This document shows positions 38,502-63,696 of a DNA stretch of 64,000 nucleotides, in pieces. The DNA comes from Amphiscolops sp. MND2022. Its lineage: Eukaryota. The DNA is taken from assembly GCA_964187785.1 (NCBI GenBank), contig OZ076409.1, positions 36,520,001 to 36,584,000 on the forward strand. The letters are read 5' to 3'. The notes under the pieces are model-generated. The model was not told where the DNA came from, did not search any database, and saw only the letters and a list, made by a program, of their open reading frames with translations. Positions within the stretch are counted from its first letter, which is position 1, and each line of letters begins with the position of its first letter. The translations under genes and the position numbers were made by a program.

Positions 38502-40319
38502 ACCTCGACTGCCTTTCATGTCTGATCTATCGCATTGGCACCTCTTTCTGCACAAATATCAGCCATATCCCTCCAAACTTGTTTGCCTCGTGTGAATCTT
38601 TCTATTTGTGATTTATTTTTTAATATGCCATCTTCACCTCATTTCAATGAACCTCATTCGAATTTTTATCTCAGTACTTAATGTCCATTTTTAATTCAAT
38701 ATGTCGCTGTCTTTGAATTTTTGGGTTTTTCTTCGAATTGGAGTTTAAGGATAAGACGTACATTACGATGCCAATCGGGGGAAAACAGTGACCGCAACAA
38801 ATCTGTTGTAGTCTTATGTGGATTCTTCAACAGCATTATACCTAGTAGGTCTTCGCTCAAAGAACATGCTCATTATTTTCTTCCCGTAGCTTCATTTGTG
38901 TTTCACACTAGCCTACAAAGCAGCCTACCTTTTTTTTCCAAATTCTGATTCCTTTTGCCAGTTGCCCATTTTCTCTGGCACAGTTTTTTTCAACAAGTAA
39001 TTGGTACCTAGATTGATTTGAATGGCACAAGCATTAGAAAAAGGGAATACCAACCACATACCCTTCCACAACAAGTCCTGATGCAACAAACCCCTATAAT
39101 ATTCTGTTGTTACTACAAGCCCCCGCGCAGCGGGCCGCACGAAGTACCGGAAAAAGAGACTAAAATTCTGAAGGAAGGGGCGCGCGGCGACAGGGGCTCA
39201 CCTGACCAAAATGAAAGCCCAATATCAGACCTTTCAAACGCGCTATAGTTCCTCTGGTACGCGTAGTTGTGGAGATATTGATGATTGAATTTTTTTTGGC
39301 AAATTTTTCGAAAATTTTGAAAAACGCCCAGGTCGATTGGGGTTAAAAAATTGAAAAAATCTTCAGAAAACTTGAAATGAACAGTAAGCTACAGTGCGTC
39401 TCAAGCTACACTGCGTTTTTTTGCTGCCTACTACGAAAAGGTGAATTCACATCCAATCTACTGAGGAGAAATTTCCGAAGGGGTATAGATATAATACGTT
39501 CCGTTTTTTTTTAGTGATTTTTTCCAGCATGAATATCATCAGTTGTTCCTACTGCCTAATTGTTTTTATGACTATTTTAATTTTATGTTTCCACCAATGT
39601 TTTCCTGGAAGAAAACCATACTTAGACCGTTTAAGCTTAGCCAATGTTTTGTTTTTACAGTCGATGTTGGTCCAAGCTAGGTATCTTATTTTCGCCAGCA
39701 TTTTTTTCAAAGTTTGTACTTTTTCAAGGTATTGGATACAATCGAAAGATTTGAACGTGCGTGGTTTTTCAAAATTAGTCATTTTTTGAAAAATACTAGA
39801 CTGCTTTATTCCCGTTCATATTTATCAATTCTAAAAGGCTGTTTATATGAAAATTTCTTCGCTTTCAAATGTCAGAAAAAAACTGAAACAACCAGGGAAC
39901 GGCATAAATCGGCGCCATATCTAAGGCTCAAAAATAGCAAAAGGACTTCAAAGTGTCAAGTATTCTCTTCTACAGTACCCTATAGGTATGAGGAAAAAGA
40001 AATTGAAGCTTTTTTGCTATTTTTGAGCCTTAGATATGGCGGCGACTTGGGCCGTTCCCGGCTTGTTATTTTTTTATTGAATTTATTTTTTATGGTATCC
40101 TGTTGAAAGAGATGCGCTTTTTGGGTTCTCCTAACAGGATTGCATATGAAAAGACTCAATTATACGAATTCTTGAATTTATAGTTATAGGATCATTTCTA
40201 TGTTTTTTTCATAGGCCCTGTTCACTCGTCGCCTTTGCTCTCAACTGAGTTACGCTTATTTTATACCAGATTTTTTTCAACCCAAAGATTCTAATTATCT
40301 TGAATCTGTGATATATTTG

Positions 40320-42437
40320 TGTCACGACCCGCTCCCGGTCGGGATTTCACTTGCTGCGGAGGAATACCGCAATTCACGCGAGGAAAAGGACACGGCAGAG
40401 CTACGCAACACTAAGTAAACTTTGTTTAATGCCTTACCTTTTATCCGAACAGCAGCACGAATTAGGTTTAACGGAAGCGCCACGTAAATTATTCAAAAAT
40501 GATTTAGACAAAAAGAAAATTTCCGGTTTAATGATTTCACATGCAATCATTTCATCACTTCCGGTTTCAACTGATGAAAATTCCATGTCAATCTAAATAT
40601 TAAAAAAGAAAACATCCTTAACACTGGGATTAATTTTTCTCTTCTCCACACTAAAATGAAAACACTAAAACAATATTTAATTCCGTAATCCCAACGGAAC
40701 GCATACAATCTAAAATGAAAGAACATACAAAGAAGATGGTGGAATTGTTTTCCAATGATTGAATAGTTGTGAATATCCACTTAAGAATGCAGTCAAACAA
40801 CTTAAGAGAATATTTACAACGTAATGGCAGCGTCACTAAGCTTGATTGAAAGGTAGACGTTTCTATTTTTACGGACCAATAGCGTCGTCTTTCACCATCC
40901 CTAATCACCATAGCAACGCCAATTGAGCGAGAGAATAAGAATGAATTTGTCAACGCTGTCCGCTCTGTCTCCGCAAGCAAGCACCGCTCAGCTATACCTA
41001 ATCTTAATACGTACGGAGCGCTTACGGAGCAAATTGTAATGCGAAGAAGCTATACCTAATCTTAATACGTACGGAGTGTTTACGGGGCGAATTGTAAATC
41101 GACGAAGTTATACCTAATGTTAATACATGTAAGACAAGCGTGGAAAATTCTAAAACATAGAAGCTATCCAAATACATCAGGATGATCCCGAGGTCATGTA
41201 GAATTATCCCAAGATATTTAAATTATCATAAGGTTTTATTTTTTCCACCCGAATTTTCCCCGTCTTAGTGATCGATTAAAATGGTTCGTGCTGTTAATTA
41301 GGATAAAAGTGAATCCTTACAAAGAGTGCTTCTTCCTATTCTGTATAAGGATGCTCTGTGTACTAATCACGTTGTAGAAACGTTGCTTTCATGAATATAC
41401 TATTTATTTGTTGCATTTATCAGTATTAACTGACTGAATTCATGTAAAGTTAGGTAGAATATTGTTGGTTGTTCTCTGATGTACAATAATCAGGTCTTTT
41501 AGTTCATATTCATCATTTTCCAGCATCATTTGTTCCTTCCCAAATATCACAATTTATCAACCCGAAATTCGTTCGAAATATTTCCGTAACAAACTTCACT
41601 TGTCATTTCTTTTATCGCAAGCTGAAAAGTTACTGTTCATAAAGTGAATCATCGTTCACGCCCGCGTGCTTTCCGCGATAAAGTTTCGACTTGACATTTG
41701 TTTTGCCGCCTTTCCCGCGATCAAACCGGAAATGATGTTAATGAACAAAAATGATTTCAACAAGTACTCCGTAAGGGAGCCGCGACTGGGAATTTTAAAT
41801 CGTGAACAATTAATTAAAGGGTTGAAATAATAGAGATGATTAAGCACTTTTGTTGAACAAAACCGATTTTTAGGATTCCTAGGAATTTTTAGGTGAGGAA
41901 CAAATGATGCTGTGAAAGTATATATACCTAAGAATTTGTAAATCTAATCAATCTGTTTTCCTAATCTACTCCGTTGATACTTCGTTTCGAAAACCATATT
42001 TCTCTGAAGAATTCAAATTTTTCCAAAGAACAATCGCTCTCTCGTTCTATCGAAAATGACTACTAGAAGCCAGAAGAGAAAAGCTGTTGAAGAATTAGTT
42101 TCCACCGAAATGGAGACCCCAATAGCTGAGGTCAACCAAAACCTAAATCCCGTAGCGGGGTCAAGTAAATCTCCTAGAGTAATCACTGAAAATCTAGAAG
42201 AAATCAAGTCTTCGCTAAGAAAAGAAATCATGTCTGATCTTACCAAAATCTTAGCCGAAAACCAAAAGGAGATGTTAAAACTTATAGCTGCTCCTGTTAA
42301 AAAACAAACTGTCATAGCCACTACTGAAGAGACAGATTCTGAATCCGAAAACATCCCGGAAAATGCAACTTCAACACCAATCAAAAGTAAAACCACTGTG
42401 ACTAATCGTAAAATCACCCCGGTAAATAGTCGTAACA
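40320..42437 (+). repeat. Gypsy 5' LTR (2118 bp)
   Basis: TG...CA ends with an 8/9 terminal inverted repeat; only 3 differences from the 3' LTR found by eye (41065, 41795, 42004). Confidence 0.97.
40990..41126 (+). repeat. 58-bp tandem repeat (~2.4 copies) inside the LTR (also 54605-54741)
   Basis: AGCTATACCTAATCTTAATAC-type unit starts at 40990, 41048 and 41106. Confidence 0.85.
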
Positions 42438-43468
42438 TGGTGACAGGAGTCCTCAATGACTCAACGAACCTCGGCAAAAAGAAAACACGACCGCACCGCC
42501 CACAAAGTTTGCCACCCAACGAACGGCCTTCAACATCACGCCTACTCTTCGCTCCCCAACCGGAAATACACCAGCTGCCACACCTACCCCCAATGCCCAA
42601 AGCACTCACTGCGTCATTGCCCGTATTCGATGGTAAGTCAGAAAAATTCGAACTTTTCGAGGACTTATTCAGGAACAACATAAAAATGTACCCACACCTG
42701 ACAGAAATCCAAAAAATCAACTACTTCCACTCACTACTACGAGGCAATGCACTACAGGCATATTGCAACCTAGATGATGCCAAAAAAGATAACTTAGAGG
42801 AAGTAATAACGGCGTTCAAACGACGCTTCGGAGATTTCCAATCTTCTGCCAAAGCGAGATGTGAATGGGACTCGCTACATTTTGACCCAACCAAACAAAA
42901 ATTACATGAATTTTTGGATACACTGCAAAAAACGGCTAAAGAAGCGTTCGGCTCTGAAGCACAAAAATTTATAGACAAGGCCATATACGCCAAAATGCCA
43001 GACCACGTCAAAAAGATCCTCAACCGAGCCTACCTCGAGGACAAACCCTATAATGATATTGTCCTACATCTCGAACGAGAGATGCGCCTTAATGGCCTAG
43101 GTGCCCCAGACGAAACCACACTAGTACCACTAAATACGGTCGACGTCGTCCCATCGGAACCAAAAAAGGAACTCACCCAACGAGGAAGCTGCTTCCACTG
43201 TGGTAAACAAGGACACTATAAAGCACAATGCCGCAAATTAAGAAAAGATCGTTACTACGAAACTAAAGCACAGAACGGTGTCCCCAAAACCATTGAACCA
43301 CCCAAACCAAAGTGCGACACTTGCGGGAAGCTCCACAAAACCGAGAACTGCTGGTACGGAGCTAATGCGGCGAATGACCCCAGAAAGAAACGTCATGAAT
43401 TCACAATACCCACTAGCCAAATCAGCGAACAACCAATCCCCACTGTTGAAATCCAGCCAAAAAACTAA
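42056..43468 (+). CDS. gag: Gag polyprotein, 470 aa (starts inside the 5' LTR)
   Basis: Capsid-like 'LPVFDGKSEKFELFEDLF...KINYFHSLLRGNALQAY...FKRRFG'; zinc knuckles CFHCGKQGHYKAQC and CDTCGKLHKTENC; AAAATG start context. Confidence 0.95.
   Translation: MTTRSQKRKAVEELVSTEMETPIAEVNQNLNPVAGSSKSPRVITENLEEIKSSLRKEIMSDLTKILAENQKEMLKLIAAPVKKQTVIATTEETDSESENIPENATSTPIKSKTTVTNRKITPVNSRNMVTGVLNDSTNLGKKKTRPHRPQSLPPNERPSTSRLLFAPQPEIHQLPHLPPMPKALTASLPVFDGKSEKFELFEDLFRNNIKMYPHLTEIQKINYFHSLLRGNALQAYCNLDDAKKDNLEEVITAFKRRFGDFQSSAKARCEWDSLHFDPTKQKLHEFLDTLQKTAKEAFGSEAQKFIDKAIYAKMPDHVKKILNRAYLEDKPYNDIVLHLEREMRLNGLGAPDETTLVPLNTVDVVPSEPKKELTQRGSCFHCGKQGHYKAQCRKLRKDRYYETKAQNGVPKTIEPPKPKCDTCGKLHKTENCWYGANAANDPRKKRHEFTIPTSQISEQPIPTVEIQPKN
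42438..42450 (+). other. Primer binding site, tRNA-Leu-like
   Basis: TGGTGACAGGAGT immediately after the LTR end. Its reverse complement ACTCCTGTCACCA differs by one base from the 3' end of the familiar metazoan tRNA-Leu(CAG) (ACTCCTGACACCA). Confidence 0.75.
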
Positions 43469-43512
43469 AAACGCCGCGCCTCCGCTTCGGGGAAACGGTA
43501 GACGCGAGGGCG
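43459..43512 (+). promoter_or_regulatory. -1 ribosomal frameshift signal joining gag and pol
   Basis: A-AAA-AAC heptamer (43459-43465) in gag phase directly before the TAA stop; 6-nt spacer; GC-rich stem CGCCGCG...CGCGAGGGCG (43472-43512). The -1 frame is open from the heptamer into the pol ORF. Confidence 0.88.
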
Positions 43513-46500
43513 TACACAATAGAAGACCCCCCAAATCGCTATGAAGAAGACTTCATGACGGAATGCAACGAAGAACCGACACAGGACTGGCAACGTCGTT
43601 GGAACGTAGGCATGATCCTCCGACACAATGCACGACACCCAGAAGACCCAACACCACTACCCCAATGGATAACAGAATCGCCCGATAACTACGCGACACT
43701 AAAAAGACCCCTACCAGAATCAAAGACTGAACGCATCTACATATATGATAAAGACTATAGATGTGACCCCTGGGATGAACCAGCCATCTATGACACAAAC
43801 AAACTCTCTTTTAAGATCCAAGTTTCAAATCCTCAAGCTCAAGTCACCGAGAGTACAACCCTACCAACACCTTTGTCACCAACCCTAAAAAAGACGACAC
43901 AGTCCTCGCCAACACCCGTCACCACCACGTACACACCAATAGATGCAGAGAATATTATCTGCATTGAAGACAAAACAATATGGTCACAACAAGCAAAAGA
44001 ACAACGCGGAGTAGCCGACCAAACAGTATCACCCCCAACAACAGCATCTGAATGGCCAAATCAGAACAACAATCACGAAGACGACGAAGTAACGGAATGC
44101 CCACAACAACTGCCATACGATCTCAACATCATAAGAGAATTCATACAACATGATAAAGATGACGATTACATCCCGTTAATGTCGGCAATTACCCTCAAAA
44201 AGAAGAAAAGAATGCTCTTTATCCCTCTCGACTTTGAAAACACTAGAATTGATGCATTAGTCGACTCAGGAGCCTACATCAACGTCATCAGTGAAAGAGA
44301 TGCAGACAAAATACAAACTGAAGCCAACGCAACCATAATCGCGAAAGCACCTCCGCCCCCTTTCAAGATACAATATGCCAATACAGAACTCGAAAAAGCC
44401 CGTGCAACATACACAATGCAATTCAAAATCGGGGATTACGCGTTCGAGGAGACTTTCATCATCATGACCAAAACCTCCTACCCAATCATTGGCCTGGCAT
44501 TTCTCCGGAAACATTCCGCAATCCTAGATACTGCACAAGGAACAATAGACTTTCCCAAAATACAAATCACTCTAGCCCTAAAAGATGAAAGACAGAAGTG
44601 CAATCCCAAACCCATCACTATCAAAACGGAAGAAAAACACACCATACCAGCACAAGCCACGCGGATTATCCACGCGTCCATCACTGCAAGCAATGACCAC
44701 TCAATAACTGGGACAGTTCAACCCCTACCGCAGTTCGACGAAAATGCAAAACTTATAGTAGCCCCAGCAATAACAACAGCCCGAGACAAACGAGTTGCGA
44801 TAAAAATAGCGAACACCACAGATTTCCCCTATACAATAACGCCACATACGAAACTAGCAGAATTACAAATACTGAAACCCGAAGAAACGAAACTAATAAG
44901 AGCAGTAGACATAGCAGCCCTCAATCTACTTACCGAACATGACGATGTTGTTGCGTACGTTAATGCACTCATGCAAGTTGATTCGTCAGACCAAACAGAA
45001 GAGAAATTCTGGTTCCCAACTCCTGAAAATCCCGGAGATGAATCGGAACACACACCCATCCAACAACGCATTCTACGAGAACTACGCGAACTACAAAGAC
45101 TAGAAGAACTGGACCCCAAACAAGACGAAAAATCTAGAACACAATTCCTCTCGCTATTCAAATGGAATGATTCACTAATAACGGGAGAAGACCGCGAAAA
45201 TCTAGAGTCCACATTAGTCGAATTCAATGACATTTTTGCACGTCACCGACTGGATATCGGAATGAACAACCAGTTCAAGGTATCCCTAACTCCCAAAAAC
45301 GACAAACCGGTATATACACAGAGTCTCCCCGTACCCATCAACCTCAAAGACGACCTCACAGTAGAATTGGCACTGATGCACAAATACGGGATCATCACAA
45401 CCCTCCCATTCTCGAAATATGCCAGCCCCATCTTCGCGCAACGCAAACCCAACGGAAAACTACGGCTCCTAGTAGACTTACGGAAAATCAACGCCCTCAT
45501 CTCAGATGACTACATAAACAACAACCACCCCATCAGCACCCTCTCGGACGCCGCACAACATCTAGCAGGAAAGCAGCTGTTCTGCAAACTAGATTGCTCA
45601 CAAGCCTATCACTGCCTCCAAATGGCAGATCAAAGGTCAGTAGAACTCCTTGCATTTAATTTTGCTAGTAGAACGTTTGCCTATCGTAGGCTAGCCCAAG
45701 GCCTTAGTAGAGCCTTGTCAGCTTTTTCGAGCTTCATGCGGGAATACCTCGACACCGTCATCAAAGCAGACCAGTGTGCCCAATATGTGGACGACATCGG
45801 AATCGCCGCCAACACAACGGAACAACTCATCAAGAATATCAGAGCAGTCTTCAAATGCATCCGCAAGGCAGGACTAAAACTCACAATTGAAAAATGCCAC
45901 TTTGGTGTCACCCAAATCGAATTCCTAGGGAGAACCATCACACCCCACGGAGTAGCACCGCAAGAACACAAAATCACCAGCTTCTTATCAAAAATCAGAT
46001 TTCCCCGGTCAAAGAAACAAGTCCAGAAATACATTGGATTCATCAACTACTACCGAAACTACATACCAAGACTGTCCGAAAAAATGATTGGAATGTATGA
46101 ACTCCTAAAAGCAGATGCCAAAATCACCATATCAGAAGAATTAGTCGACAACTTCAAAGCCATCAACGCGAGCCTAGCGGAAGCATGTGGGCTAGCCCTC
46201 AGACAACCAGTTGCGGGAAAACAATACGTACTAATGACGGACGCAAGCTTCCGGGCATCAGGCTACGCCCTAATGATAGAAGAAAATGACGATAAAAAGC
46301 TACTCTCCAAACGGAAAACTTTCGCACCGGTCGCTTTTGGTTCCCGCGTATTCTCGCCGTCACAACTGAAGATGTCGATATACTGTAAAGAATTCCTTGC
46401 AATATATCATGCATTCCTTGAATATAGTCACATTCTCTGGGAAACAACACTACCTACACTAGTACTGACAGACAACAGATCAGTAACGCGATTTTTCCAG

Positions 46501-48675
46501 ACAAAAACAACGCCACCTGCTCTCTGGAATGCCTGCGACTACGTACTCCAGTTCAAATTCCGCATCATGCACGTAGCAGGCTCGCAAAATACAGCAGCCG
46601 ACTTCCTGTCTCGACTCGAAGTAACTCCAAAAGAGAGAATCCAACTCAAATTACGAGACGATATCATAACGGCACCCATCGAGGTTAACCTACAGTCTAC
46701 AGACGTTGCGGACGAAGAACAACTCTTTTTCCTGCCAGATGAAGAAGAGGAATCAGAACAAGAAATTTTCGCCAGGAAAGCCCTTAGCAAACAACGAGCA
46801 ATAGACGAAAAGGAACAACAAAACTTGACAACGGAAGTCACAGAAACAGTGCACATACCTCTTAACTCAGCAGTATACGCCTTTGGAGCCATCAAAGAAA
46901 ACGCCCGCATTCGCAACGAACAGGACGCGGACCCGATATTAAAAGCATTGAAACTACGGCTGCTTCACGAAGAATACGACAAACACCTCCTCAAGACTGA
47001 ACCCAGAGGACGAAACCTACTACGTCACGAGGAAAGAATAATAGTCAAAGACGGAGTACTCATGCGTAAGTACTACGGAGAAGATGGCACAGTAACACAT
47101 CACCAAATCCTCATACCAAAACATATAGTACCAGAACTCCTATTGACGCTACATGGAAAAATGAACAAACACCCAGGAATAACCAAAATGATTCAGGAAA
47201 GCCGAGCAAAGTACTACTATCCGGGACTAGCGCGGAAAATTAGAGCCAGGGTAATCAACTGCCCAGATTGCATCGCCAACAAACGAATTGACACGCGCCA
47301 AATACGTCCTAAAATGCTGAGTAACACAGAATTCACATTCGGACCAGAAGATTGCCTAGAAGTCGATATACTACCAAACCTACCCTCATCAAACGGCTAC
47401 AAACACATCGTAACCATGATGGATGTTTTCTCCCGTTATTTATTCGCATACCCCACTCAAGACATGACAGCCAGAACAGTAGGACGATGCATAATTGACG
47501 TTATGACGCGTCATTGTTATCTGCCTACAGTGATTCTAACTGATAAAGGATCACAATTCCGATCAGATGTAGTAAATCAAATTGCACAGACACTTGACAT
47601 CCGGATCAGCCACGCGTCAACAAAGCATGCACAAACAATCGGCATACTCGAAAGAACGCATGCATCTCTAAAGACTTCCCTCAAGATATCAACGGGAGAA
47701 CGCCGTTCGATGTGGCACAAATACGTACAAATTGCAGTAATGAACTACAACACTAGTTACCACGAGAGCCTAGGATGTGAACCAACAACCGTATTTCACG
47801 GACGCATCCCGTACAACATCCTGGACATCAAGCTGGGACTCAAGCCAGAATGGAAAAAAGATGCCAACGAAGACCTAACGGACGAATTACAAAAGCAAAT
47901 CGCTGAAATCCACCAGTCAGCCAAGGACAACCTCATGCAATCATATTTGAAGTATAAGCGATATTATGATAAAAAAGCGACAGCAACGCCATTGAAAATC
48001 AATGACTATTGCTACGTCCTGAACCCGAAGGCTGATAACCAGTCAATAAAATTCGCTTTCAAAGATTGCATTTGGACAGGACCATATATAGTGGTCAAAG
48101 TCCTTTCCAATAACAATTACGTCGTAAGACGGACAGGAACTAGATATACGCAAACCCTCCATAGAATTCGCCTAAGGCTATATGCGCCCAATCAACGAGT
48201 ACCTGACGTAACAGTCAAAGTGGAAGACCAGCTTCCAGATCCCGAGGTTAAAACAACCCATGATGATTGGTACGCGCAAGCTTGGGAAACCGAATTCGGA
48301 GAAGTTCTGTTCGGCAACTCATCAGAGAGAGAAAATGAAGAAGCTAACATCACAGAGCTGCCAGCGGAAGACGCAAATACAACGGAGCAAGAAACAGTTA
48401 TAACAACTGCGGACGAAACTTCAATACCAGAACAAATTCCCCCCGGAAATGAAACGCCGCTCAACTTAGATGTCAGCGATAACCCTTTCATAATGACCCC
48501 ACCGCCTACAGAAAGCCCCCCAATACCGCCTACATTACCACCTATAGTAGTTGGGTATAATCCGAGAAAAACAGGAAGATACAACCTACGGCCTAATCCT
48601 AAACCTAACGCGCATCCTGACTTCCGGATGCTCGACGCAATCGTCACGGAAGAAAGCTCTCAAGCCTCAAACTAG
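43465..48675 (+). CDS. pol: Pol (protease, dUTPase-like insert, RT, RNase H, integrase), expressed as Gag-Pol by -1 frameshift; first ATG at 43555
   Basis: LVDSGA (protease); LRLLVDLRKIN, KLDCSQAY, LAQGL, YVDD (RT); MTDAS, KEFLAI, LTDNRS (RNase H); H-H-CPDC, EVDIL, LTDKGSQF, ILERTH (integrase); WTGPY motif. No stops over 1706+ codons. Confidence 0.97.
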   Translation, partial: LKTPRLRFGETVDARAYTIEDPPNRYEEDFMTECNEEPTQDWQRRWNVGMILRHNARHPEDPTPLPQWITESPDNYATLKRPLPESKTERIYIYDKDYRCDPWDEPAIYDTNKLSFKIQVSNPQAQVTESTTLPTPLSPTLKKTTQSSPTPVTTTYTPIDAENIICIEDKTIWSQQAKEQRGVADQTVSPPTTASEWPNQNNNHEDDEVTECPQQLPYDLNIIREFIQHDKDDDYIPLMSAITLKKKKRMLFIPLDFENTRIDALVDSGAYINVISERDADKIQTEANATIIAKAPPPPFKIQYANTELEKARATYTMQFKIGDYAFEETFIIMTKTSYPIIGLAFLRKHSAILDTAQGTIDFPKIQITLALKDERQKCNPKPITIKTEEKHTIPAQATRIIHASITASNDHSITGTVQPLPQFDENAKLIVAPAITTARDKRVAIKIANTTDFPYTITPHTKLAELQILKPEETKLIRAVDIAALNLLTEHDDVVAYVNALMQVDSSDQTEEKFWFPTPENPGDESEHTPIQQRILRELRELQRLEELDPKQDEKSRTQFLSLFKWNDSLITGEDRENLESTLVEFNDIFARHRLDIGMNNQFKVSLTPKNDKPVYTQSLPVPINLKDDLTVELALMHKYGIITTLPFSKYASPIFAQRKPNGKLRLLVDLRKINALISDDYINNNHPISTLSDAAQHLAGKQLFCKLDCSQAYHCLQMADQRSVELLAFNFASRTFAYRRLAQGLSRALSAFSSFMREYLDTVIKADQCAQYVDDIGIAANTTEQLIKNIRAVFKCIRKAGLKLTIEKCHFGVTQIEFLGRTITPHGVAPQEHKITSFLSKIRFPRSKKQVQKYIGFINYYRNYIPRLSEKMIGMYELLKADAKITISEELVDNFKAINASLAEACGLALRQPVAGKQYVLMTDASFRASGYALMIEENDDKKLLSKRKTFAPVAFGSRVFSPSQLKMSIYCKEFLAIYHAFLEYSHILWETTLPTLVLTDNRSVTRFFQTKTTPPALWNACDYVLQFKFRIMHVAGSQNTAADFLSRLEVTPKERIQLKLRDDIITAPIEVNLQSTDVADEEQLFFLPDEEEESEQEIFARKALSKQRAIDEKEQQNLTTEVTETVHIPLNSAVYAFGAIKENARIRNEQDADPILKALKLRLLHEEYDKHLLKTEPRGRNLLRHEERIIVKDGVLMRKYYGEDGTVTHHQILIPKHIVPELLLTLHGKMNKHPGITKMIQESRAKYYYPGLARKIRARVINCPDCIANKRIDTRQIRPKMLSNTEFTFGPEDCLEVDILPNLPSSNGYKHIVTMMDVFSRYLFAYPTQDMTARTVGRCIIDVMTRHCYLPTVILTDKGSQFRSDVVNQIAQTLDIRISHASTKHAQTIGILERTHASLKTSLKISTGERRSMWHKYVQIAVMNYNTSYHESLGCEPTTVFHGRIPYNILDIKLGLKPEWKKDANEDLTDELQKQIAEIHQSAKDNLMQSYLKYKRYYDKKATATPLKINDYCYVLNPKADNQSIKFAFKDCIWTGPYIVVKVLSNNNYVVRRTGTRYTQTLHRIRLRLYAPNQRVPDVTVKVEDQLPDPEVKTTHDDWYAQAWETEFGEVLFGNSSERENEEANITELPAEDANTTEQETVITTADETSIPEQIPPGNETPLNLDVSDNPFIMTPPPTESPPIPPTLPPIVVGYNPRKTGRYNLRPNPKPNAHPDFRMLDAIVTEESSQASN

Positions 48676-48841
48676 ATAAAAACAAATAACGAGCCAAACC
48701 GAACCGGAATGGCAACGTCAATTTTTCTCTCCACTAAAATAATCACTACGCAACAAACTAAATAGAATGGATATAGAATACTGGCCAAAGAAAACAAGAA
48801 AAATAACAATAGATACATAAAGTTATTTCGGAAGAGCACAC

Positions 48842-51800
48842 TCAGAGCTTCTTTATTCTATGCCGAACTTCAGGATCTTCGTTCGCCTTTGTCTTGCTCC
48901 CTTTAGACTTCTTCGAAGCACTCTCGCTGCCACCTTTTTTAATCACGGCCACATCTGCACTCACAACGCTCTTCTTTGACGTCGAACCACCAGCAACTGT
49001 TCCCACCGACGTGCCCTGTCCGCGGATCTCCAATACCTTCTTGCTTTTCACAGTAGAACTAGAAGTACTGCCAGTATCACTGACGACTGATCCTTGTCTC
49101 GAACGTGCCTCACGGTTAGCCTTGTTCAGCCCAATATAATAGCTCTCACAGGATTTCCGACGCTCCAATATAAAATCACGATATAGCGATCTATAACGAG
49201 TAATGAACGCATCCAGATCCTCTCCGCATATGTCACGCCACAAATCAAAATCAGCTGCAACATAGAAAGCTCCAGCATTTGCGATAGCCTCCCGGACTAC
49301 ATCCAGAGTACGATCCACAAAGAAAGTTTTGTGAGCATAACCCCAACTGAGCACATACGACTGGACTAACAGCAAACAATCACGAACAATCGCCGTACTA
49401 AAGGCACAACCACTCAAGTCGAGCGTCACAACAGGGGGAACAGCTTCGGGCACCCCGATCACCAAACAACAGAGCTTGAACACACGAAACAGATGCACTC
49501 GGGCCTGGAAACTAAAATCCCGGATAAGGTACCGGATAACATCTGGAATGTCACTTGCAGCATGTTCTTCACCCGCGTGTTGTCTCCGCTTCTCAATGAT
49601 GTAACTATGGTACTCCTCCACTGCAGCTGCTGATTCGTCCGCCTTCAACACTCCACAGGATTTCAACAGATTACACAAAGACGCAAACAACCCAAACACA
49701 GTGTGGTCATCACCCTCCAGCATAATCTCAGGGCAAAAACTGTAGAGTCCCTGAGACAGTTTCGAAGTTACAGCCATGTTCCGCAACAAAACCACCACCA
49801 GATGATCCAGGAAAGAACGACACTTTGAGCGAAAATCGCGAATCTCACTCGTCTTCCCTGCAGCCAGCTCTTTTCCATAAGCATAGTTTGAAAGGAATTC
49901 CTCGATTGGCACTGCTGCAAAAGAACTCAGTTTGCTCTCGTCCATATACGACTCCCAATCGTGAATCCCAGGAAGATCAGAAGAACTACGGGTCTTTAGC
50001 AGCAGGCAGTAAACAAAGTTGCAGATCTCACCATAACCGTGAAACCCGTAATCAGCCCGGCCCTGTTGCAGCTTCTCGAAGTTGAAAACAACTAAAACAC
50101 ACACGATATATCAGAAATTGGAATACAATAGAAACCCCAGTCGAAATCAAGCCGATAGATCCATTTCTCCTCTCAATCTGTACAATCAGAAAACATAATA
50201 CAAAACAAAAACAAAAGACCATACTTACAAAGATCGAGCACCTGACGGAGTAATCCGAACCGATAAACCATAAGGTTATCAGAGATTATCTCAAAATCAG
50301 TGCCCTTCAGCTAAAAAGCAACAACCAGTTAACCTACACAGTTCAACCACTGAAGACGACAAAGAAGAACAAAAAAAAAGAGAGAAAGAAAAAAAAACAA
50401 TAACCCACCCTGTCCACAACGTCTTTCAAGTGGGGATGACCAGTATATCGAATATACGGACGAATGGAAGGCCACAGTTCTATGAGGTCCGTCAGCATAG
50501 CGCGGAGATCACTAAAGTCAACGGAACCTGAGCGTACTGCCTTCTTTAGAATTGGTTTGTCCTCCACCCAATCCTCATGCACGACACTTTTCAACCGGAG
50601 GACCACATATTCCACCGCAGTCATCACTTCCAGCATTCCAAAAATGTCTTGGTGCGCTTGACGGAAACACTGCATAAACACGTCCTCGTTGAATCGTCGC
50701 ACCTGTAGAAACTCCCGACCATCGTCACGATTGTCGCCAAGAACGCGGAGTAAAGACGGGCTACCACCCACAATTGACACTGGTAGCTGCTGTGAACCAA
50801 CACTGCTAACAACACGTGCCAAGGGAACAAGCTCCGCGTCTGGAACTGGAAGATCCAATGACTGACTTCCCACACAGACTTTCTTTAAGTAGTTGCCCTC
50901 CCAACAGAGCACGTAACACCGCTCTTCAACCGTCGTCCTCTCATACTGAATGGCATACTCCTTAAAGCTCGCAATGCTCTTTAGTGTCAAACGCAAGACC
51001 CGCGGCGCAAGGCCCTGACACAAAAAAGACTAAAACACACAACAATATCATAACGGCGCCACCTAACAACCTACAAAATATACAAATATATATATCACAC
51101 TACCAACCACAGTCTCTGACCGACTCCAACCCAAAGCGTACTGAGGTGCTTGCGTCTCCAAAGTAGCACAGAAATGACCCCACAGGCGCCGCAGCAACGT
51201 ATAATCACCTCCACTACTCAGCAAATCGCAGAAGCTTGACACCAAAGTCATAAATGGCACTCGGGATGTCACTTGGGCATGTTTGGGCACTCGATCTTCC
51301 GGGAATGGAAAGCCCTCCGCCAAGTCTACGAAAGCACGAGCACTGAAATCAGCCAACTGGTTAGCGGACAGGACCATAGGCTCCATCAAACGATTCAGCA
51401 CAGGAAGCCCCATGTGGACACGATACGTGACATCACGAAACCAATGACCATCACTCCGGAAATGCCGCGCAAATTCACCAGCTCCTTGCGCTTTCATTCC
51501 AACGTCCCGATGACACACGCGACAAAAGAAAAATTTGTCGGAGCCACTCTTGGAACCAGATACGAAGATTTCATAGGCGGGATTTAGAGTCAGCATATCA
51601 CGACGCAACCGGTTCCGGCTGCTGTACTTCTTCACCTTCTTCGCGCTACCCAATCGCTCTTCCATCTTTGCAGCAAGATCTTGGAGACCTACAACAACAA
51701 ACAAATCCTCAGCGGAAAACAAAATAGACATACCGACGACGAACTCATGACAGCTTTCCAGGACAATATAACGAAAGTACCCCAACCAAAATTATAAACG

Positions 51801-52871
51801 AAAGTATACGTACTGTTCTGAATCGTTTGTGAAGCTCTGGTTCCAACTTCATCCACAAGCTGTCTTCCCAACAAAGCCACATCCTGAGGGCTTAACGCTA
51901 ACCCACCGGGGCCACTCAGAGGATCTTCCTCTTGACCTAAAACATCAACCCCCGGCTAAAACCTGAAGAACAAAACACAAGATCACCCTCCCTTCCACAG
52001 TTTGAATATAAAAATACCTCACAATTGACCCAAATAACGACCCTACCCACAATATATAAATAATACTAACTACTCAAAGGATTAGCTACAACAGTATCCA
52101 GAGGAGGAGACGACGAAGAACCCCTTGCATTCCGACTGCGTTTGCTGGGGGTCACGATTTTCACGGAAGTCTTCCGTGACCTGCTCAATTTTGAACCTAC
52201 AACAATCACACCTTTTGACTCACCCGTATACAACGCGGAAAACGCTCACAACAAACAACAAAACTGCCAAGTAACCTTTCAAAACTCCAGGGCGGGGATT
52301 AGCCTCACCTTCGTGAGACTCTTCGCTAGTGTCCAAACGTTGTTGCGAGTCAGCTATCAACCCAGAAAGCCCAGGTCCACTAACCCCAACTGCAGTGCCA
52401 CCCGGATCTGCGGCGGAACAACTGACTGCTTCAGTCGTGGGAAGGTCAAACTCTGAGACGTTAGGCAACACAGTAGTCAGCATCTCGCTAACAGTAAGTA
52501 ATGGAGCCGTCGACAAAACGGAAGACACAGGTGGCAGTTTGGAAAAAGACTCTGGTAACCCTCCTTCATCTCCAAAGGAAGAACTGGCCGGGACAGCCCC
52601 GGGAACAACAGAGGAGGAAGCAGGTTGAGTTACTGAAAATCAAGATCTGGTTTGACGCGTCAGAGTTACGGGTAAGACTGGAAAAGGCTGATCACCAAAA
52701 CAACAGTCCAATTACCCAAGAGAGTCAGAAAGATTTTTACCAACCTGGAACATGACACACAGGATCGCCTTCTGAATGCAGAACATCACCGTCGGAATAA
52801 CAATAATTGGTTTCATTGCCACTAAGACAACCAGCAGCAGTGGCGGCAGGAACCTCACTCTCCTTATCCAT
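48842..52871 (-). CDS. Antisense 8-exon cargo gene, predicted 1077 aa, hAT-transposase-derived zinc-finger protein lacking catalytic residues. Exons: 52871-52745, 52632-52309, 52196-52071, 51936-51814, 51688-51108, 51029-50409, 50310-50229, 50091-48842
   Basis: Seven GT..AG introns of 112, 112, 134, 125, 78, 98 and 137 nt (donors GTTGGT, GTGAGG, GTTAGT, GTACGT, GTTGGT, GTGGGT, GTAAGT; T-rich acceptors). Phases 1,1,1,1,0,0,1 join into 3234 nt with no internal stop. C-x2-C-x16-H-x5-H finger at 51524-51444. The exon 6 acceptor could instead be 51015 (same phase). The 5' exons are less certain than exons 5-8. Confidence 0.82.
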
Positions 52872-52949
52872 AAGCAGAAAGAATCTGAAACAAAAAAATT
52901 ACAATCAAAAGTGAGCAGAGAAAAGAAAGATGGCAGAACTACCCCGGAA

Positions 52950-53200
52950 GGATGATGTCATGAGAAGAATTAAATCCAAAAAAATTAAGGAGAAAACCTA
53001 AAAGAGAAAAAAAAAAGGACATTTTCAAAATCATGACGTCCCGCGAATTATTCCCAGAAAAAGAATTGATGACGTCATGATGTAGCTCAAAATTGGAAAC
53101 TTATTTCACGGCTCAGCCAATCACAACGCAGATGGAAGTGAAACGCTTTCCGAAGATGAAACGAATTGATATAAAAAGGAAAATAATAGCCAATGAGAAT
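52950..53200. promoter_or_regulatory. Putative internal bidirectional promoter
   Basis: Lies between divergent ATGs (52871 minus, 53295 plus). Palindromic CRE ATGACGTCAT (53069-53078), near-CREs at 52953 and 53034, AGCCAAT boxes at 53115 and 53188, TATAAAAAG at 53170. Confidence 0.5.
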
Positions 53201-53294
53201 GCAGGAAAATTACGAACGGAAGAAAGTTAACCTCTTCACTTGCCGCATTCTAAACGTAAAGATAAGACAGCTTGCAATAATCAAAAAACTTAAA

Positions 53295-54029
53295 ATGAAT
53301 AACTACGACTTAGTTATCGATATCTCCTCCGACGAAGAAGAACGGGGAAGCAACGTAAGACAGAGCACCCCGATCAAAATACTCCCGCTTAATGTGATAA
53401 CAACTCTGGATCTTTCTGAAGCCTCCTTAGAAGCTACAAAAGGCAGCGCAGAAGAGATGATGGACTCTATCAATAGTCTAAATTTATCTGGCATCTCAGC
53501 GTCTACATTTGAGACTATCGGTTCTCCGAGAAAAATAAACCTCGGCTCTACAAGCCCTGGTGAAGCCTTCATAGTGGAAGGACATAATACTGAAACGTCT
53601 GAAGAAAGCTACTTCGAAGAGCCGGATACTCCCCGTCAATTACCGCCGCTGCAGCCCGCCCCAGTATTACGAGACGTGTCTAACAAAGAACTGCAGTACT
53701 ATGGACCGCCTGCAAAAGCCGACAAACTCGATGATTTGATGGAGCCAGCAGTAGAAGAAATCGAAAACGCCTACGGCATAGATCTTCAAAGCAGCCGAGA
53801 GAGCAGCCCGTTGTGCGGACGGGGAACGCACTACACTTCTACAAAACTGGCAAGAGCACGGAAACAACCAGTATTGATCACTAGAGAAATTCCCCACTGC
53901 CCCAGACCGTGGTCAACAGGCTATAGAGGCGCCCTGTCACGACCCGCTCCCGGTCGGGATTTCACTTGCTGCGGAGGAATACCGCAATTCACGCGAGGAA
54001 AAGGACACGGCAGAGCTACGCAACACTAA
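53295..54029 (+). CDS. Accessory ORF3, 244 aa (278 aa from the upstream ATG at 53193), acidic and Ser-rich, unknown function; runs 95 nt into the 3' LTR
   Basis: Open frame with AAAATG context like gag; N-terminal 'LVIDISSDEEE'; no signal peptide or transmembrane stretch visible. Confidence 0.65.
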   Translation: MNNYDLVIDISSDEEERGSNVRQSTPIKILPLNVITTLDLSEASLEATKGSAEEMMDSINSLNLSGISASTFETIGSPRKINLGSTSPGEAFIVEGHNTETSEESYFEEPDTPRQLPPLQPAPVLRDVSNKELQYYGPPAKADKLDDLMEPAVEEIENAYGIDLQSSRESSPLCGRGTHYTSTKLARARKQPVLITREIPHCPRPWSTGYRGALSRPAPGRDFTCCGGIPQFTRGKGHGRATQH

Positions 54030-56052
54030 GTAAACTTTGTTTAATGCCTTACCTTTTATCCGAACAGCAGCACGAATTAGGTTTAACGGAAGCGCCACGT
54101 AAATTATTCAAAAATGATTTAGACAAAAAGAAAATTTCCGGTTTAATGATTTCACATGCAATCATTTCATCACTTCCGGTTTCAACTGATGAAAATTCCA
54201 TGTCAATCTAAATATTAAAAAAGAAAACATCCTTAACACTGGGATTAATTTTTCTCTTCTCCACACTAAAATGAAAACACTAAAACAATATTTAATTCCG
54301 TAATCCCAACGGAACGCATACAATCTAAAATGAAAGAACATACAAAGAAGATGGTGGAATTGTTTTCCAATGATTGAATAGTTGTGAATATCCACTTAAG
54401 AATGCAGTCAAACAACTTAAGAGAATATTTACAACGTAATGGCAGCGTCACTAAGCTTGATTGAAAGGTAGACGTTTCTATTTTTACGGACCAATAGCGT
54501 CGTCTTTCACCATCCCTAATCACCATAGCAACGCCAATTGAGCGAGAGAATAAGAATGAATTTGTCAACGCTGTCCGCTCTGTCTCCGCAAGCAAGCACC
54601 GCTCAGCTATACCTAATCTTAATACGTACGGAGCGCTTACGGAGCAAATTGTAATGCGAAGAAGCTATACCTAATCTTATTACGTACGGAGTGTTTACGG
54701 GGCGAATTGTAAATCGACGAAGTTATACCTAATGTTAATACATGTAAGACAAGCGTGGAAAATTCTAAAACATAGAAGCTATCCAAATACATCAGGATGA
54801 TCCCGAGGTCATGTAGAATTATCCCAAGATATTTAAATTATCATAAGGTTTTATTTTTTCCACCCGAATTTTCCCCGTCTTAGTGATCGATTAAAATGGT
54901 TCGTGCTGTTAATTAGGATAAAAGTGAATCCTTACAAAGAGTGCTTCTTCCTATTCTGTATAAGGATGCTCTGTGTACTAATCACGTTGTAGAAACGTTG
55001 CTTTCATGAATATACTATTTATTTGTTGCATTTATCAGTATTAACTGACTGAATTCATGTAAAGTTAGGTAGAATATTGTTGGTTGTTCTCTGATGTACA
55101 ATAATCAGGTCTTTTAGTTCATATTCATCATTTTCCAGCATCATTTGTTCCTTCCCAAATATCACAATTTATCAACCCGAAATTCGTTCGAAATATTTCC
55201 GTAACAAACTTCACTTGTCATTTCTTTTATCGCAAGCTGAAAAGTTACTGTTCATAAAGTGAATCATCGTTCACGCCCGCGTGCTTTCCGCGATAAAGTT
55301 TCGACTTGACATTTGTTTTGCCGCCTTTCCCGCGATCAAACCGGAAATGATGTTAATGAACAAAAATGATTTCAACAAGTACTCCGTAAGGGAGCCGCGA
55401 CTGGGAATTCTAAATCGTGAACAATTAATTAAAGGGTTGAAATAATAGAGATGATTAAGCACTTTTGTTGAACAAAACCGATTTTTAGGATTCCTAGGAA
55501 TTTTTAGGTGAGGAACAAATGATGCTGTGAAAGTATATATACCTAAGAATTTGTAAATCTAATCAATCTGTTTTCCTAATCTACTCCGTTGATACTTCGT
55601 TTCGAAAACCATATTTCTTTGAAGAATTCAAATTTTTCCAAAGAACAATCGCTCTCTCGTTCTATCGAAAATGACTACTAGAAGCCAGAAGAGAAAAGCT
55701 GTTGAAGAATTAGTTTCCACCGAAATGGAGACCCCAATAGCTGAGGTCAACCAAAACCTAAATCCCGTAGCGGGGTCAAGTAAATCTCCTAGAGTAATCA
55801 CTGAAAATCTAGAAGAAATCAAGTCTTCGCTAAGAAAAGAAATCATGTCTGATCTTACCAAAATCTTAGCCGAAAACCAAAAGGAGATGTTAAAACTTAT
55901 AGCTGCTCCTGTTAAAAAACAAACTGTCATAGCCACTACTGAAGAGACAGATTCTGAATCCGAAAACATCCCGGAAAATGCAACTTCAACACCAATCAAA
56001 AGTAAAACCACTGTGACTAATCGTAAAATCACCCCGGTAAATAGTCGTAACA
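53935..56052 (+). repeat. Gypsy 3' LTR (2118 bp)
   Basis: Direct repeat of 40320-42437, followed by TSD ATTTG. Confidence 0.97.
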
Positions 56053-56060
56053 ATTTGTGA
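55671..56060 (+). CDS. LTR-borne copy of the Gag N-terminus (127 codons in the LTR plus 2 from the flank, then stop)
   Basis: Identical to gag residues 1-127; terminates in the host flank just after the TSD. Expression unknown. Confidence 0.45.
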   Translation: MTTRSQKRKAVEELVSTEMETPIAEVNQNLNPVAGSSKSPRVITENLEEIKSSLRKEIMSDLTKILAENQKEMLKLIAAPVKKQTVIATTEETDSESENIPENATSTPIKSKTTVTNRKITPVNSRNNL

Positions 56061-56301: not shown

Positions 56302-57165
56302 TGTAACGGCTGCTTGATCCCTTCAATTGACCAAACTTTACGCCGCCCTGAATTCGGTGCTCGGCACTGCGGATCGTTACCGAGCACTGCTTGCTTCGTA
56401 GATTAAAAGGACTGTATCTTGACTTAGTAGGATCCAATGATCCCGAATTGCACTTCTTCCTTGTCTCTTAACACGTCCAACTCTCCACAAGTTGAGAGTA
56501 ACTAACTTAGTCGCCCTAAGTCTTTGGCGAAAAGTCGAAAAGAGGTGAAGAAATGAATTGAGAACTGAAATGGTCCTAAGACCCAACTTGACTACAGCTA
56601 TTCAGTCGTTAAAATCTCTATCTAATAATGGTATAAACGTGGTTTACAATTCTACAGTAAATATAAGGCGAAGACAAGTTGAAATATGTGGTATAAATAA
56701 ATGACATTTGAGTGAATTATTAAAGTTATTGGCTATGTAAACAAAGCACATGGTGGTTTTAGCATGTTGATTAGGTGGGCTCTAAAGCATGTTTACACAT
56801 GGTAAATATCACTAATTTCAACAGAGTTACATTCTAATGTGGTCATATAGGTAACTATCAACATTTACATTTTTGGTTCAATGACCTTGAACAACACACA
56901 TGTGGGGGGTAAAAGGGGTTATAATGGGTGGATGACCTTGAAACTTGGCCAGTGTGTTTGGGTTATGTATCTGCATGTGTGTGCCAAGTTTCGTGGCTCT
57001 AGGGTTAACAGTCTTGGAGAAAACCCATTTGGGGGGGGTTTTCCATTTTGGTCCCCCTCATTATTTGATCAAATTTTCATCTAAGTTTTTAAGAGTTTAA
57101 GTTTTGTTTCTCAACCAGCAAGTTCTGAATTGAGTTTCTCTGCCTTCTGATGACTGGCGCCAACA
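56302..57165 (-). repeat. BEL/Pao 3' LTR (~864 bp)
   Basis: Minus strand reads purine-rich GGGAGAAAAACAGGGCCGGCAA, then TGTTGGCGCC (57165) ... GCCGTTACA (56302). The inner boundary is inferred because the other LTR is truncated by the window. Confidence 0.8.
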
Positions 57166-63497: not shown

Positions 63498-63504
63498 TTT
63501 TGAC

Positions 63505-63696
63505 CTAGCCCAAAACCCCAGAGTACACTAACTAACCACAGGAGTCCAAAATCTGCTGTGAATACAATTTCCCAACAAGCCGATGAAGTAGCCCAAAACC
63601 CCAGAGTACACTATATACCCAAGAGCTCCAGTAATACCACTTCGAATACAAAATCCCAGAGCCTGCAGAAGTAGCCCAAGCCCCAGAGTACACTAA
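63505..63696. repeat. Three spaced copies of TAGCCCAA(A)(A/G)CCCCAGAGTACACTA in the BEL leader (~82-bp period)
   Basis: Copies start near 63506, 63589 and 63672. Confidence 0.8.

What the first reader, a model, noticed from the sequence alone, without database searches (positions are those of the whole stretch)
48842..51688. The antisense cargo looks like a catalytically dead hAT transposase adopted by a retrotransposon
By-eye colinearity with hAT transposases: N-terminal finger 'FFCRVCHRDVGMKAQGAGEFARHFRSDGH'; RNase-H-like strands 'EYAIQYERTTVEERCYVLCW' (usually fsl.lDEstd); 'PVSIVGGSPSLL' (usually ..sDgasvm); 'LIELWPSIRPYI'; 'FRSKCRSFLDHLVVVLLRNMAVTSKLSQGLYSFCPEIM...LCNLLKSCGVLKADESAAAVEEYHSY'; and 'HLFRVFKLCCLVI' at the start of the dimerization domain. 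The two catalytic Asp, the CxxH and RW motifs and the ERxFS Glu all appear absent, yet the zinc ligands and basic NLS-like tracts are intact. Inference: a class II enzyme repurposed by a class I element as a DNA- or chromatin-binding factor, for example for anti-silencing, integration targeting or LTR regulation.
Basis: inference. Interest (0 to 1): 0.88.

Follow-up and report, generated by a model that had tools for sequence, protein, structure and literature searches.

The report
Retrotransposon carries a disabled DNA transposase
A large family of copy-and-paste retrotransposons has kept, on its opposite strand, a well-preserved gene descended from a cut-and-paste transposase that has lost its cutting site, probably re-using it as a DNA-binding helper protein.

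Summary
Observation confirmed and extended. A young, intact Ty3/gypsy element (40320-56052; LTRs differ at 3 of 2118 bases; 5-bp target duplication) carries a spliced antisense gene between pol and the 3' LTR. It lies antisense to RT in 36 of 36 scorable elements, is under purifying selection (dN/dS 0.05-0.10 in six of seven measurable pairs), and shares three deep clades with RT. Pfam, PDB and Ac-type hATs give no match. The family profile does hit remnants of a DNA transposon in the same genome (12-bp TIRs, 6-bp target duplications, hAT6-like): E=2.6e-10 among 1571 ORFs, hhalign 92%. The first catalytic Asp is absent in 39 of 39 relatives (Glu here). The last Glu is Thr here but acidic in 28 of 39. 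The zinc finger is nearly invariant. Best mechanism (inferred, 0.45): a nuclear DNA-binding activator or anti-silencing factor, paired head-to-head with a second conserved ORF bearing a SIM-like motif. The gene swaps between subfamilies independently of LTR type, which argues against cognate-LTR recognition. No full-length structure or RNA evidence was obtained.

The parts
40315..40319 (+). 5-bp target-site duplication, left copy (right copy 56053-56057)
40320..42437 (+). 5' LTR, 2118 bp, TG...CA; its last 380 bp overlap the start of gag; contains 2.4 copies of a 58-bp repeat
42438..42450 (+). primer-binding site (starts TGG; the same first 13 bases in 9 of 10 elements with paired LTRs)
42056..43468 (+). 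gag (Retrotrans_gag-like, zinc knuckle)
43450..48675 (+). pol: protease, RT, RNase H, integrase (Ty3/gypsy order); no env seen
48842..50091 (-). cargo exon 8: helical insertion domain and C-terminal domain homologous to the hAT6-like transposase; Thr at the catalytic-Glu position (49424-49426); basic low-complexity tail (about 48845-49160)
50409..51029 (-). cargo exon 6: degenerate RNase H-like core; Glu at the first catalytic-Asp position (50940-50942)
51108..51688 (-). cargo exon 5: C2H2 zinc finger (51444-51524) and the adjoining most conserved region
51814..51936 (-). cargo exon 4 (predicted)
52071..52196 (-). cargo exon 3 (predicted)
52276..52632 (-). cargo exon 2 (predicted; Ser/Thr/Pro/acidic-rich)
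52654..52661 (.). palindrome GACGCGTC within a DNA-conserved block in predicted intron 1; present at this place in 16 of 17 elements from two deep clades
52745..52871 (-). cargo exon 1 (predicted, ATG 52871), with an acidic/aromatic motif found in 6 of 8 elements of the window's clade
52872..53294 (.). candidate divergent internal promoter: CCAAT boxes at 53117 and 53190, CRE-like palindrome at 53070
   Evidence: motifs only; function inferred
53295..54029 (+). second accessory ORF (acidic/Ser-rich, runs into the 3' LTR), SIM-like motif at 53313-53339
53935..56052 (+). 3' LTR

Best explanation
Origin (about 0.9): an ancestor of this Ty3/gypsy lineage acquired a hAT6-like DNA-transposon gene in antisense between pol and the 3' LTR. 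The antisense orientation lets introns survive reverse transcription, and the gene has since been copied with the element by the normal RT/integrase route. The protein kept its C2H2 finger, the adjoining DNA-binding half and the helical C-terminal half, lost the catalytic triad, and carries a long acidic/Ser-rich N-terminal extension and a basic tail. Mechanism (about 0.45, inferred): it is transcribed from an internal divergent promoter shared with a second accessory ORF, enters the nucleus, binds DNA or chromatin of its own lineage at a site common to the subfamilies (candidate: the conserved palindromic block in its first intron, or an invariant LTR site), and raises genomic-RNA transcription or holds off host silencing in trans, as TnpA does for Spm. 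SHOWN: element anatomy, conservation, purifying selection, homology to the donor, loss of the first Asp, no cut-and-paste hallmark. INFERRED: splicing of exons 1-4, expression, nuclear localisation, DNA binding, target site, direction of effect.
For: Homology: cargo profile against 1571 background ORFs, best hit L173 at E=2.6e-10, the next five ORFs all from the same transposon group, best reversed decoy E=0.095. hhalign with the donor C-terminal alignment: Prob 92%, score 58.5 against a maximum of 24.8 in 40 column shuffles, colinear over 300 columns in global mode. With the N-terminal alignment: score 35.4 against 20.7, E=0.0019, from the finger to the strand after the first Asp. The donor is a DNA transposon: 12-bp TIRs starting CAGGG, 6-bp duplications in 3 of 4 copies, subterminal repeats. 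A relative, L179, matches Ac-type hATs at Prob 89.6% across the second Asp, CxxH and RW motifs, and those hATs match Hermes at E=5e-79. Independent weak leads: ESM Atlas rows at 0.81-0.83 in hAT-related families; Hermes has the longest alignment among the 50 listed chains. Dead: Asp in 0 of 39 at the first position; 5-bp duplications in 9 of 10 elements with paired LTRs. Retained binding half: finger ligands in 39, 38, 38 and 39 of 39; 32 of 56 near-invariant columns lie in the first 203 of 740 positions, only 4 in positions 204-440. Useful to the element: dN/dS; three deep clades (9, 5 and 11 rows) shared with RT. Basic tails in 17 of 17. Partner ORF in 17 of 17 elements, pN/pS 0.21-0.46 in 9 of 9 pairs, SIM-like motif in 8 of 8 of the window's clade. 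Precedent for transposases as transcription regulators: bioRxiv 10.64898/2026.08.24.746577.
Against: No expression, splicing or binding data. The cargo does not follow LTR type: L055 and L059 share 99% of cargo DNA but 58-71% of LTR DNA; L055 and L057 share 99% of LTR DNA but 74% of cargo DNA; rank correlation of cargo with LTR segments is only 0.2-0.46. The donor's subterminal repeat is absent from the element. Single-sequence BLAST of the window's last exon against L173 is weak (E=0.007), the E-values are for a small, hypothesis-chosen set, and the middle of the RNase H-like core does not align above shuffles. The donor C-terminal part matches Ac-type hATs only at E=0.19. The SIM-like motif is absent from 9 of 9 elements of the other clade.
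Confidence: 0.45

Rival explanations
1. Integration-step cofactor: the dead transposase binds cDNA ends or integrase, escorts the pre-integration complex into the nucleus, or tethers it to chromatin.
For: hAT transposases bind and pair DNA ends (established knowledge); basic tails in 17 of 17; tandem arrays at one-element spacing occur in the genome.
Against: Nine resolved insertion sites have unrelated flanks and nine different 5-bp duplications. The cargo is exchanged independently of pol (L041: RT DNA 98% identical to the window, cargo 64%), which is unexpected for an integrase partner.
Confidence: 0.2
2. RNA-level helper: a Rev-like exporter of genomic RNA, or an antagonist of small-RNA silencing that binds a host protein rather than DNA.
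For: The cargo changes several-fold faster than RT in protein sequence and is swapped as a module, as host-facing factors often are (inference); the partner ORF has a SIM-like motif.
Against: The most conserved part is the finger and adjoining region that bind DNA in hAT transposases (established knowledge). No RNA-binding family matched.
Confidence: 0.15
3. Negative regulator: it binds the element and limits its transcription or copy number, or interferes with competing elements; antisense RNA may add to this.
For: Antisense accessory genes of retroviruses and plant elements are proposed regulators (PMC11963269 passages; PMC7264820); dead transposases can repress their own elements (recalled).
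Against: The lineage has many young, near-identical copies, which does not suggest tight self-restraint, though it does not exclude tissue-specific repression.
Confidence: 0.1
4. The protein keeps some nuclease or strand-transfer activity through a changed acidic triad.
For: Glu at the first position in 11 of 17 intron-bearing members; Glu or Asp at the last position in 22 of 22 members of the other clade.
Against: The two retentions fall mostly in different clades; no Asp at the first position in 39 of 39; no conserved Asp, His or Arg-Trp in the intervening core; insertions carry integrase-type 5-bp duplications.
Confidence: 0.04
5. The resemblance is chance or convergent and the cargo is an unrelated orphan family.
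For: No Pfam, PDB-sequence or Foldseek match; hhalign to Ac-type hATs Prob 0.5-0.6%.
Against: A significant and colinear match to the hAT6-like group at both ends of the protein, above shuffles and decoys.
Confidence: 0.07

Closest known systems
Plant antisense accessory ORFs of Retand, Grande and RIRE2 (TRP28, PF04195; GENE23)
   Same: Conserved antisense ORF between pol and the 3' LTR of a Ty3/gypsy lineage, own internal promoter in Grande, nuclear or predicted DNA-binding protein (PMC7264820 parts 1-2 of 3; PMC11963269 passages).
   Different: Their origin is stated as unknown, with no similarity to other transposons; here the donor is identifiable as a hAT-type transposase. No PF04195 hit. 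This gene is multi-exon and has a head-to-head partner ORF.
hAT6-like DNA transposons (hAT superfamily; 6-bp duplications define hAT6 per PMC12730594 passage)
   Same: Finger, first RNase H-like strands, insertion domain and C-terminal domain are colinear with remnants L169-L178 of such a transposon in this genome.
   Different: No intact triad; sits inside an LTR element with 5-bp duplications; about 260 extra N-terminal residues. No reference hAT6 protein was compared.
Spm/CACTA TnpA and host-domesticated transposases (FAR1, MUSTANG; ZBED and ZNF862 recalled)
   Same: A transposase-derived, non-catalytic protein retained by selection, presumably as a DNA-binding regulator (bioRxiv 10.64898/2026.08.24.746577, sections 6 and 8).
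   Different: Those serve their own DNA transposon or the host at low copy; this one serves a retrotransposon and is amplified by it.
Bdelloid LTR-retrotransposon ORF3s (GDSL esterase, DEDDy exonuclease)
   Same: Family-specific extra ORFs after pol, traced by remote homology (PMC5408684 passages).
   Different: Their catalytic residues are reported intact, and the word transposase does not occur in that paper's main text.

Membership tests
Ty3/gypsy LTR retrotransposon (host element) | LTRs with TG...CA, PBS, short target duplication | tested here: met
Ty3/gypsy LTR retrotransposon (host element) | pol order PR-RT-RH-IN | tested here: met
hAT transposase-derived protein | sequence homology to a hAT-type transposase over several domains | tested here: met
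   (hAT6-like donor); not detected against Ac-type hATs
hAT transposase-derived protein | N-terminal C2H2/BED-type finger | tested here: met
   ligands in 38-39 of 39; aligns with the donor finger; no Pfam zf-BED hit
hAT transposase-derived protein | RNase H-like fold with helical insertion domain | tested here: inconclusive
hAT transposase-derived protein | C-terminal dimerisation domain (PF05699) | tested here: inconclusive
   no Pfam hit for the cargo, and none for the donor L173 either; colinear with the donor C-terminus in global alignment
active hAT transposase | DDE triad | tested here: not met
   first Asp absent in 39 of 39; last position Thr in the window's protein
active hAT transposase | CxxH and RW motifs | tested here: inconclusive
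   no conserved His or Arg-Trp in the interval, but the region did not align above shuffles
active hAT transposon | own TIRs and target duplication around the gene | tested here: not met
   the gene lies inside an LTR element whose ends carry 5-bp duplications; no arm of the 25 longest inverted repeats lies in the element (44 found, minimum 40 nt, so short TIRs were not excluded); donor subterminal motif absent
hAT6 (for the donor) | 6-bp target duplication | tested here: met
   3 of 4 copies; the fourth gives 5
hAT6 (for the donor) | phylogenetic placement with Repbase hAT6 | not testable with these tools
   no reference sequences held
Retand-type antisense ORF | TRP28 domain (PF04195) | tested here: not met
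TnpA/VANC-like element-encoded regulator (works like) | sequence-specific binding to the own element with activation or loss of silencing | not testable with these tools
   needs ChIP and knock-down; indirect test by co-segregation with LTRs was negative

The most novel reading that the evidence does not exclude
A class I element has domesticated a class II enzyme: a hAT6-like transposase, disarmed and given a new acidic N-terminus, works with a SUMO-binding partner from a shared divergent promoter as an exchangeable two-gene anti-silencing cassette that helped this lineage reach high copy number.
Probability: 0.25. Interest if true: 0.92.

Novelty: new variant of a known kind. Interest (0 to 1): 0.78.

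Why it matters
Antisense accessory ORFs of LTR retrotransposons have been described as of unknown origin and function (PMC7264820). Here one has a traceable ancestor, a DNA transposase, so domestication of a transposase has been done by another mobile element rather than by the host. It gives a testable model for how retrotransposons gain regulators, with many natural variants, precise intron presence/absence and module swaps within one genome. Eight literature searches listed no report of it; subscription journals and Repbase Reports are not in that library.

Full report
THE ELEMENT. The finding lies inside a complete Ty3/gypsy LTR retrotransposon at 40320-56052. Its LTRs are 2118 bp and differ at three positions, its ends are TG...CA, a 5-bp duplication flanks it and a TGG primer site follows the 5' LTR. 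gag and a 1741-codon pol frame with protease, RT, RNase H and integrase are open. No env was seen.

GENE MODEL. A DNA alignment of four subfamilies suggested four upstream exons from ATG 52871. The eight-exon model reads 1088 aa without a stop. Exons 5-8 are well supported. L082 and L088 lack the last intron exactly (part of that output was cut). A second clade encodes the homologue of exons 5-8 in one genomic ORF: P0281, 51 listed genomic matches, and 19 ORFs of 717-918 aa, onto which the window's exons tile in order. Exons 1-4 are predictions. No RNA run was listed, so expression is untested. Whether the introns were gained or lost is open; the donor ORFs L178 and L179 are uninterrupted over the same region.

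A FIXED PART OF THE LINEAGE. The last exon has 132 listed matches in the genome, 116 without an internal stop (lower bound), and more divergent subfamilies exist. I fetched 36 loci chosen for diversity from these lists. With the window, 36 of 37 had both RT and cargo in view, and all 36 had the cargo antisense to RT. In trees of 25 elements, RT and cargo share three deep clades of 9, 5 and 11 rows, with much longer cargo branches (quick cargo tree). dN/dS was 0.05-0.10 in six pairs, 0.51 in one near-identical pair and saturated in seven; RT was 0.01-0.05 in 13 of 14. A further subfamily (P0240) matches this genome at no more than 36% and probably comes from another species; a metagenome fragment resembles it.

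CATALYTIC STATE. At the first Asp position, 0 of 39 relatives have Asp; 11 of 17 intron-bearing members, the window's among them, have Glu. At the last Glu position the window has Thr, but 22 of 22 members of the other clade and 6 of 17 intron-bearing ones have Glu or Asp. No conserved Asp, His or Arg-Trp fits the second-Asp, CxxH or RW sites. The four zinc ligands are kept in 39, 38, 38 and 39 of 39. Of 56 near-invariant columns, 32 lie in the first 203 of 740 positions and 4 in positions 204-440 (all). Nine of 10 elements with paired LTRs show 5-bp duplications with unrelated flanks; one was unresolved. The element therefore moves by integrase and shows no sequence-specific target.

HOW IT PROBABLY WORKS. 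Selection has kept the DNA-binding half and relaxed the catalytic core; the tail is basic in 17 of 17 and the predicted N-terminal extension is Ser/acidic-rich. Head-to-head with the cargo, across about 420 bp with CCAAT and CRE-like motifs, lies a second ORF, present in 17 of 17 elements (114-278 codons; pN/pS 0.21-0.46 in 9 pairs) with a SIM-like motif in 8 of 8 of the window's clade and 0 of 9 of the other (the SIM label is recalled, from no call). I read this as a two-gene accessory module whose transposase-derived member binds the element's DNA in trans and promotes transcription or resists silencing (0.45). One test went against the simplest form: the cargo does not follow LTR type or RT within clades. 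The target must then be common to the subfamilies, travel with the module, or be a host factor. A palindrome in predicted intron 1, kept in 16 of 17 elements, is a candidate, but in the window it overlaps a plausible branch point. Rivals are an integration cofactor (0.2), an RNA-level or host-protein antagonist (0.15), a repressor (0.1), residual catalysis (0.04) and chance resemblance (0.07).

COMPARISON WITH WHAT IS KNOWN. Position and orientation match plant antisense ORFs, whose origin is given as unknown and not similar to other transposons (PMC7264820, parts 1-2 of 3; PMC11963269, passages). Function by analogy matches TnpA and domesticated transposases that lose the triad (bioRxiv 10.64898/2026.08.24.746577, abstract and sections 6 and 8; its supplements could not be seen). 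Bdelloid ORF3s are captured enzymes, not transposases (PMC5408684, passages). PMC3942097 (passages) was used for hAT groups only. It is a hAT-derived protein, not an active hAT transposase and not a TRP28 protein. Eight searches listed no description of such a capture; Repbase Reports and most subscription journals are not searched.

VERDICT. Real, lineage-wide and selected; hAT6-like origin likely (0.9); function inferred. New variant of a known kind, interest 0.78.

Noticed in passing
window 53295-54029 (+): Second conserved accessory ORF of no known family, acidic/Ser-rich, running into the 3' LTR, with a SIM-like motif in one clade; under purifying selection.
   Followed up: partly
window 42056-42437 and 55671-56052: gag starts inside the LTR and reads through the primer-binding site, so each LTR carries the first 127 codons of gag; seen in both deep clades.
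   Followed up: no
window 52633-52745: Predicted intron 1 is more conserved in DNA than its flanking exons and holds several short palindromes; no Rfam match.
   Followed up: partly
L082 and L088 versus other loci; P0281-type clade: Exact intron presence/absence differences in an antisense gene of a retrotransposon; direction (gain or loss) unresolved.
   Followed up: partly
G000:C11:34835110 and 34848726; C13:16515582-16544086; C9:27446678 and 27460622; C3:9852943 and 9866828: Cargo matches spaced by about one element minus one LTR (13.6-14.0 kb), suggesting tandem arrays that share LTRs.
   Followed up: no
L170:2400-3474: A deleted copy of the hAT6-like donor sits inside the pol of an LTR retrotransposon on the opposite strand, a present-day example of the insertion route by which the cargo may have arisen.
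   Followed up: partly
L041, L055, L059, L065, L069: Frequent module exchange of RT, cargo and LTR between subfamilies.
   Followed up: partly
window 57111-63527 (-): A second element with one open 2138-codon frame, BEL/Pao type (Peptidase_A17, DUF1759, DUF5641).
   Followed up: no
window 2500-40100: Dense families of short dispersed and inverted repeats (for example 12 copies of a 56-nt unit, and paired arms at 2523-4495 and 32556-34367), probably non-autonomous DNA transposons.
   Followed up: no
L179 (G000:C8:26461900-26463500) and about 60 similar matches: A multi-copy hAT-like transposase with intact motifs that Pfam does not recognise.
   Followed up: partly
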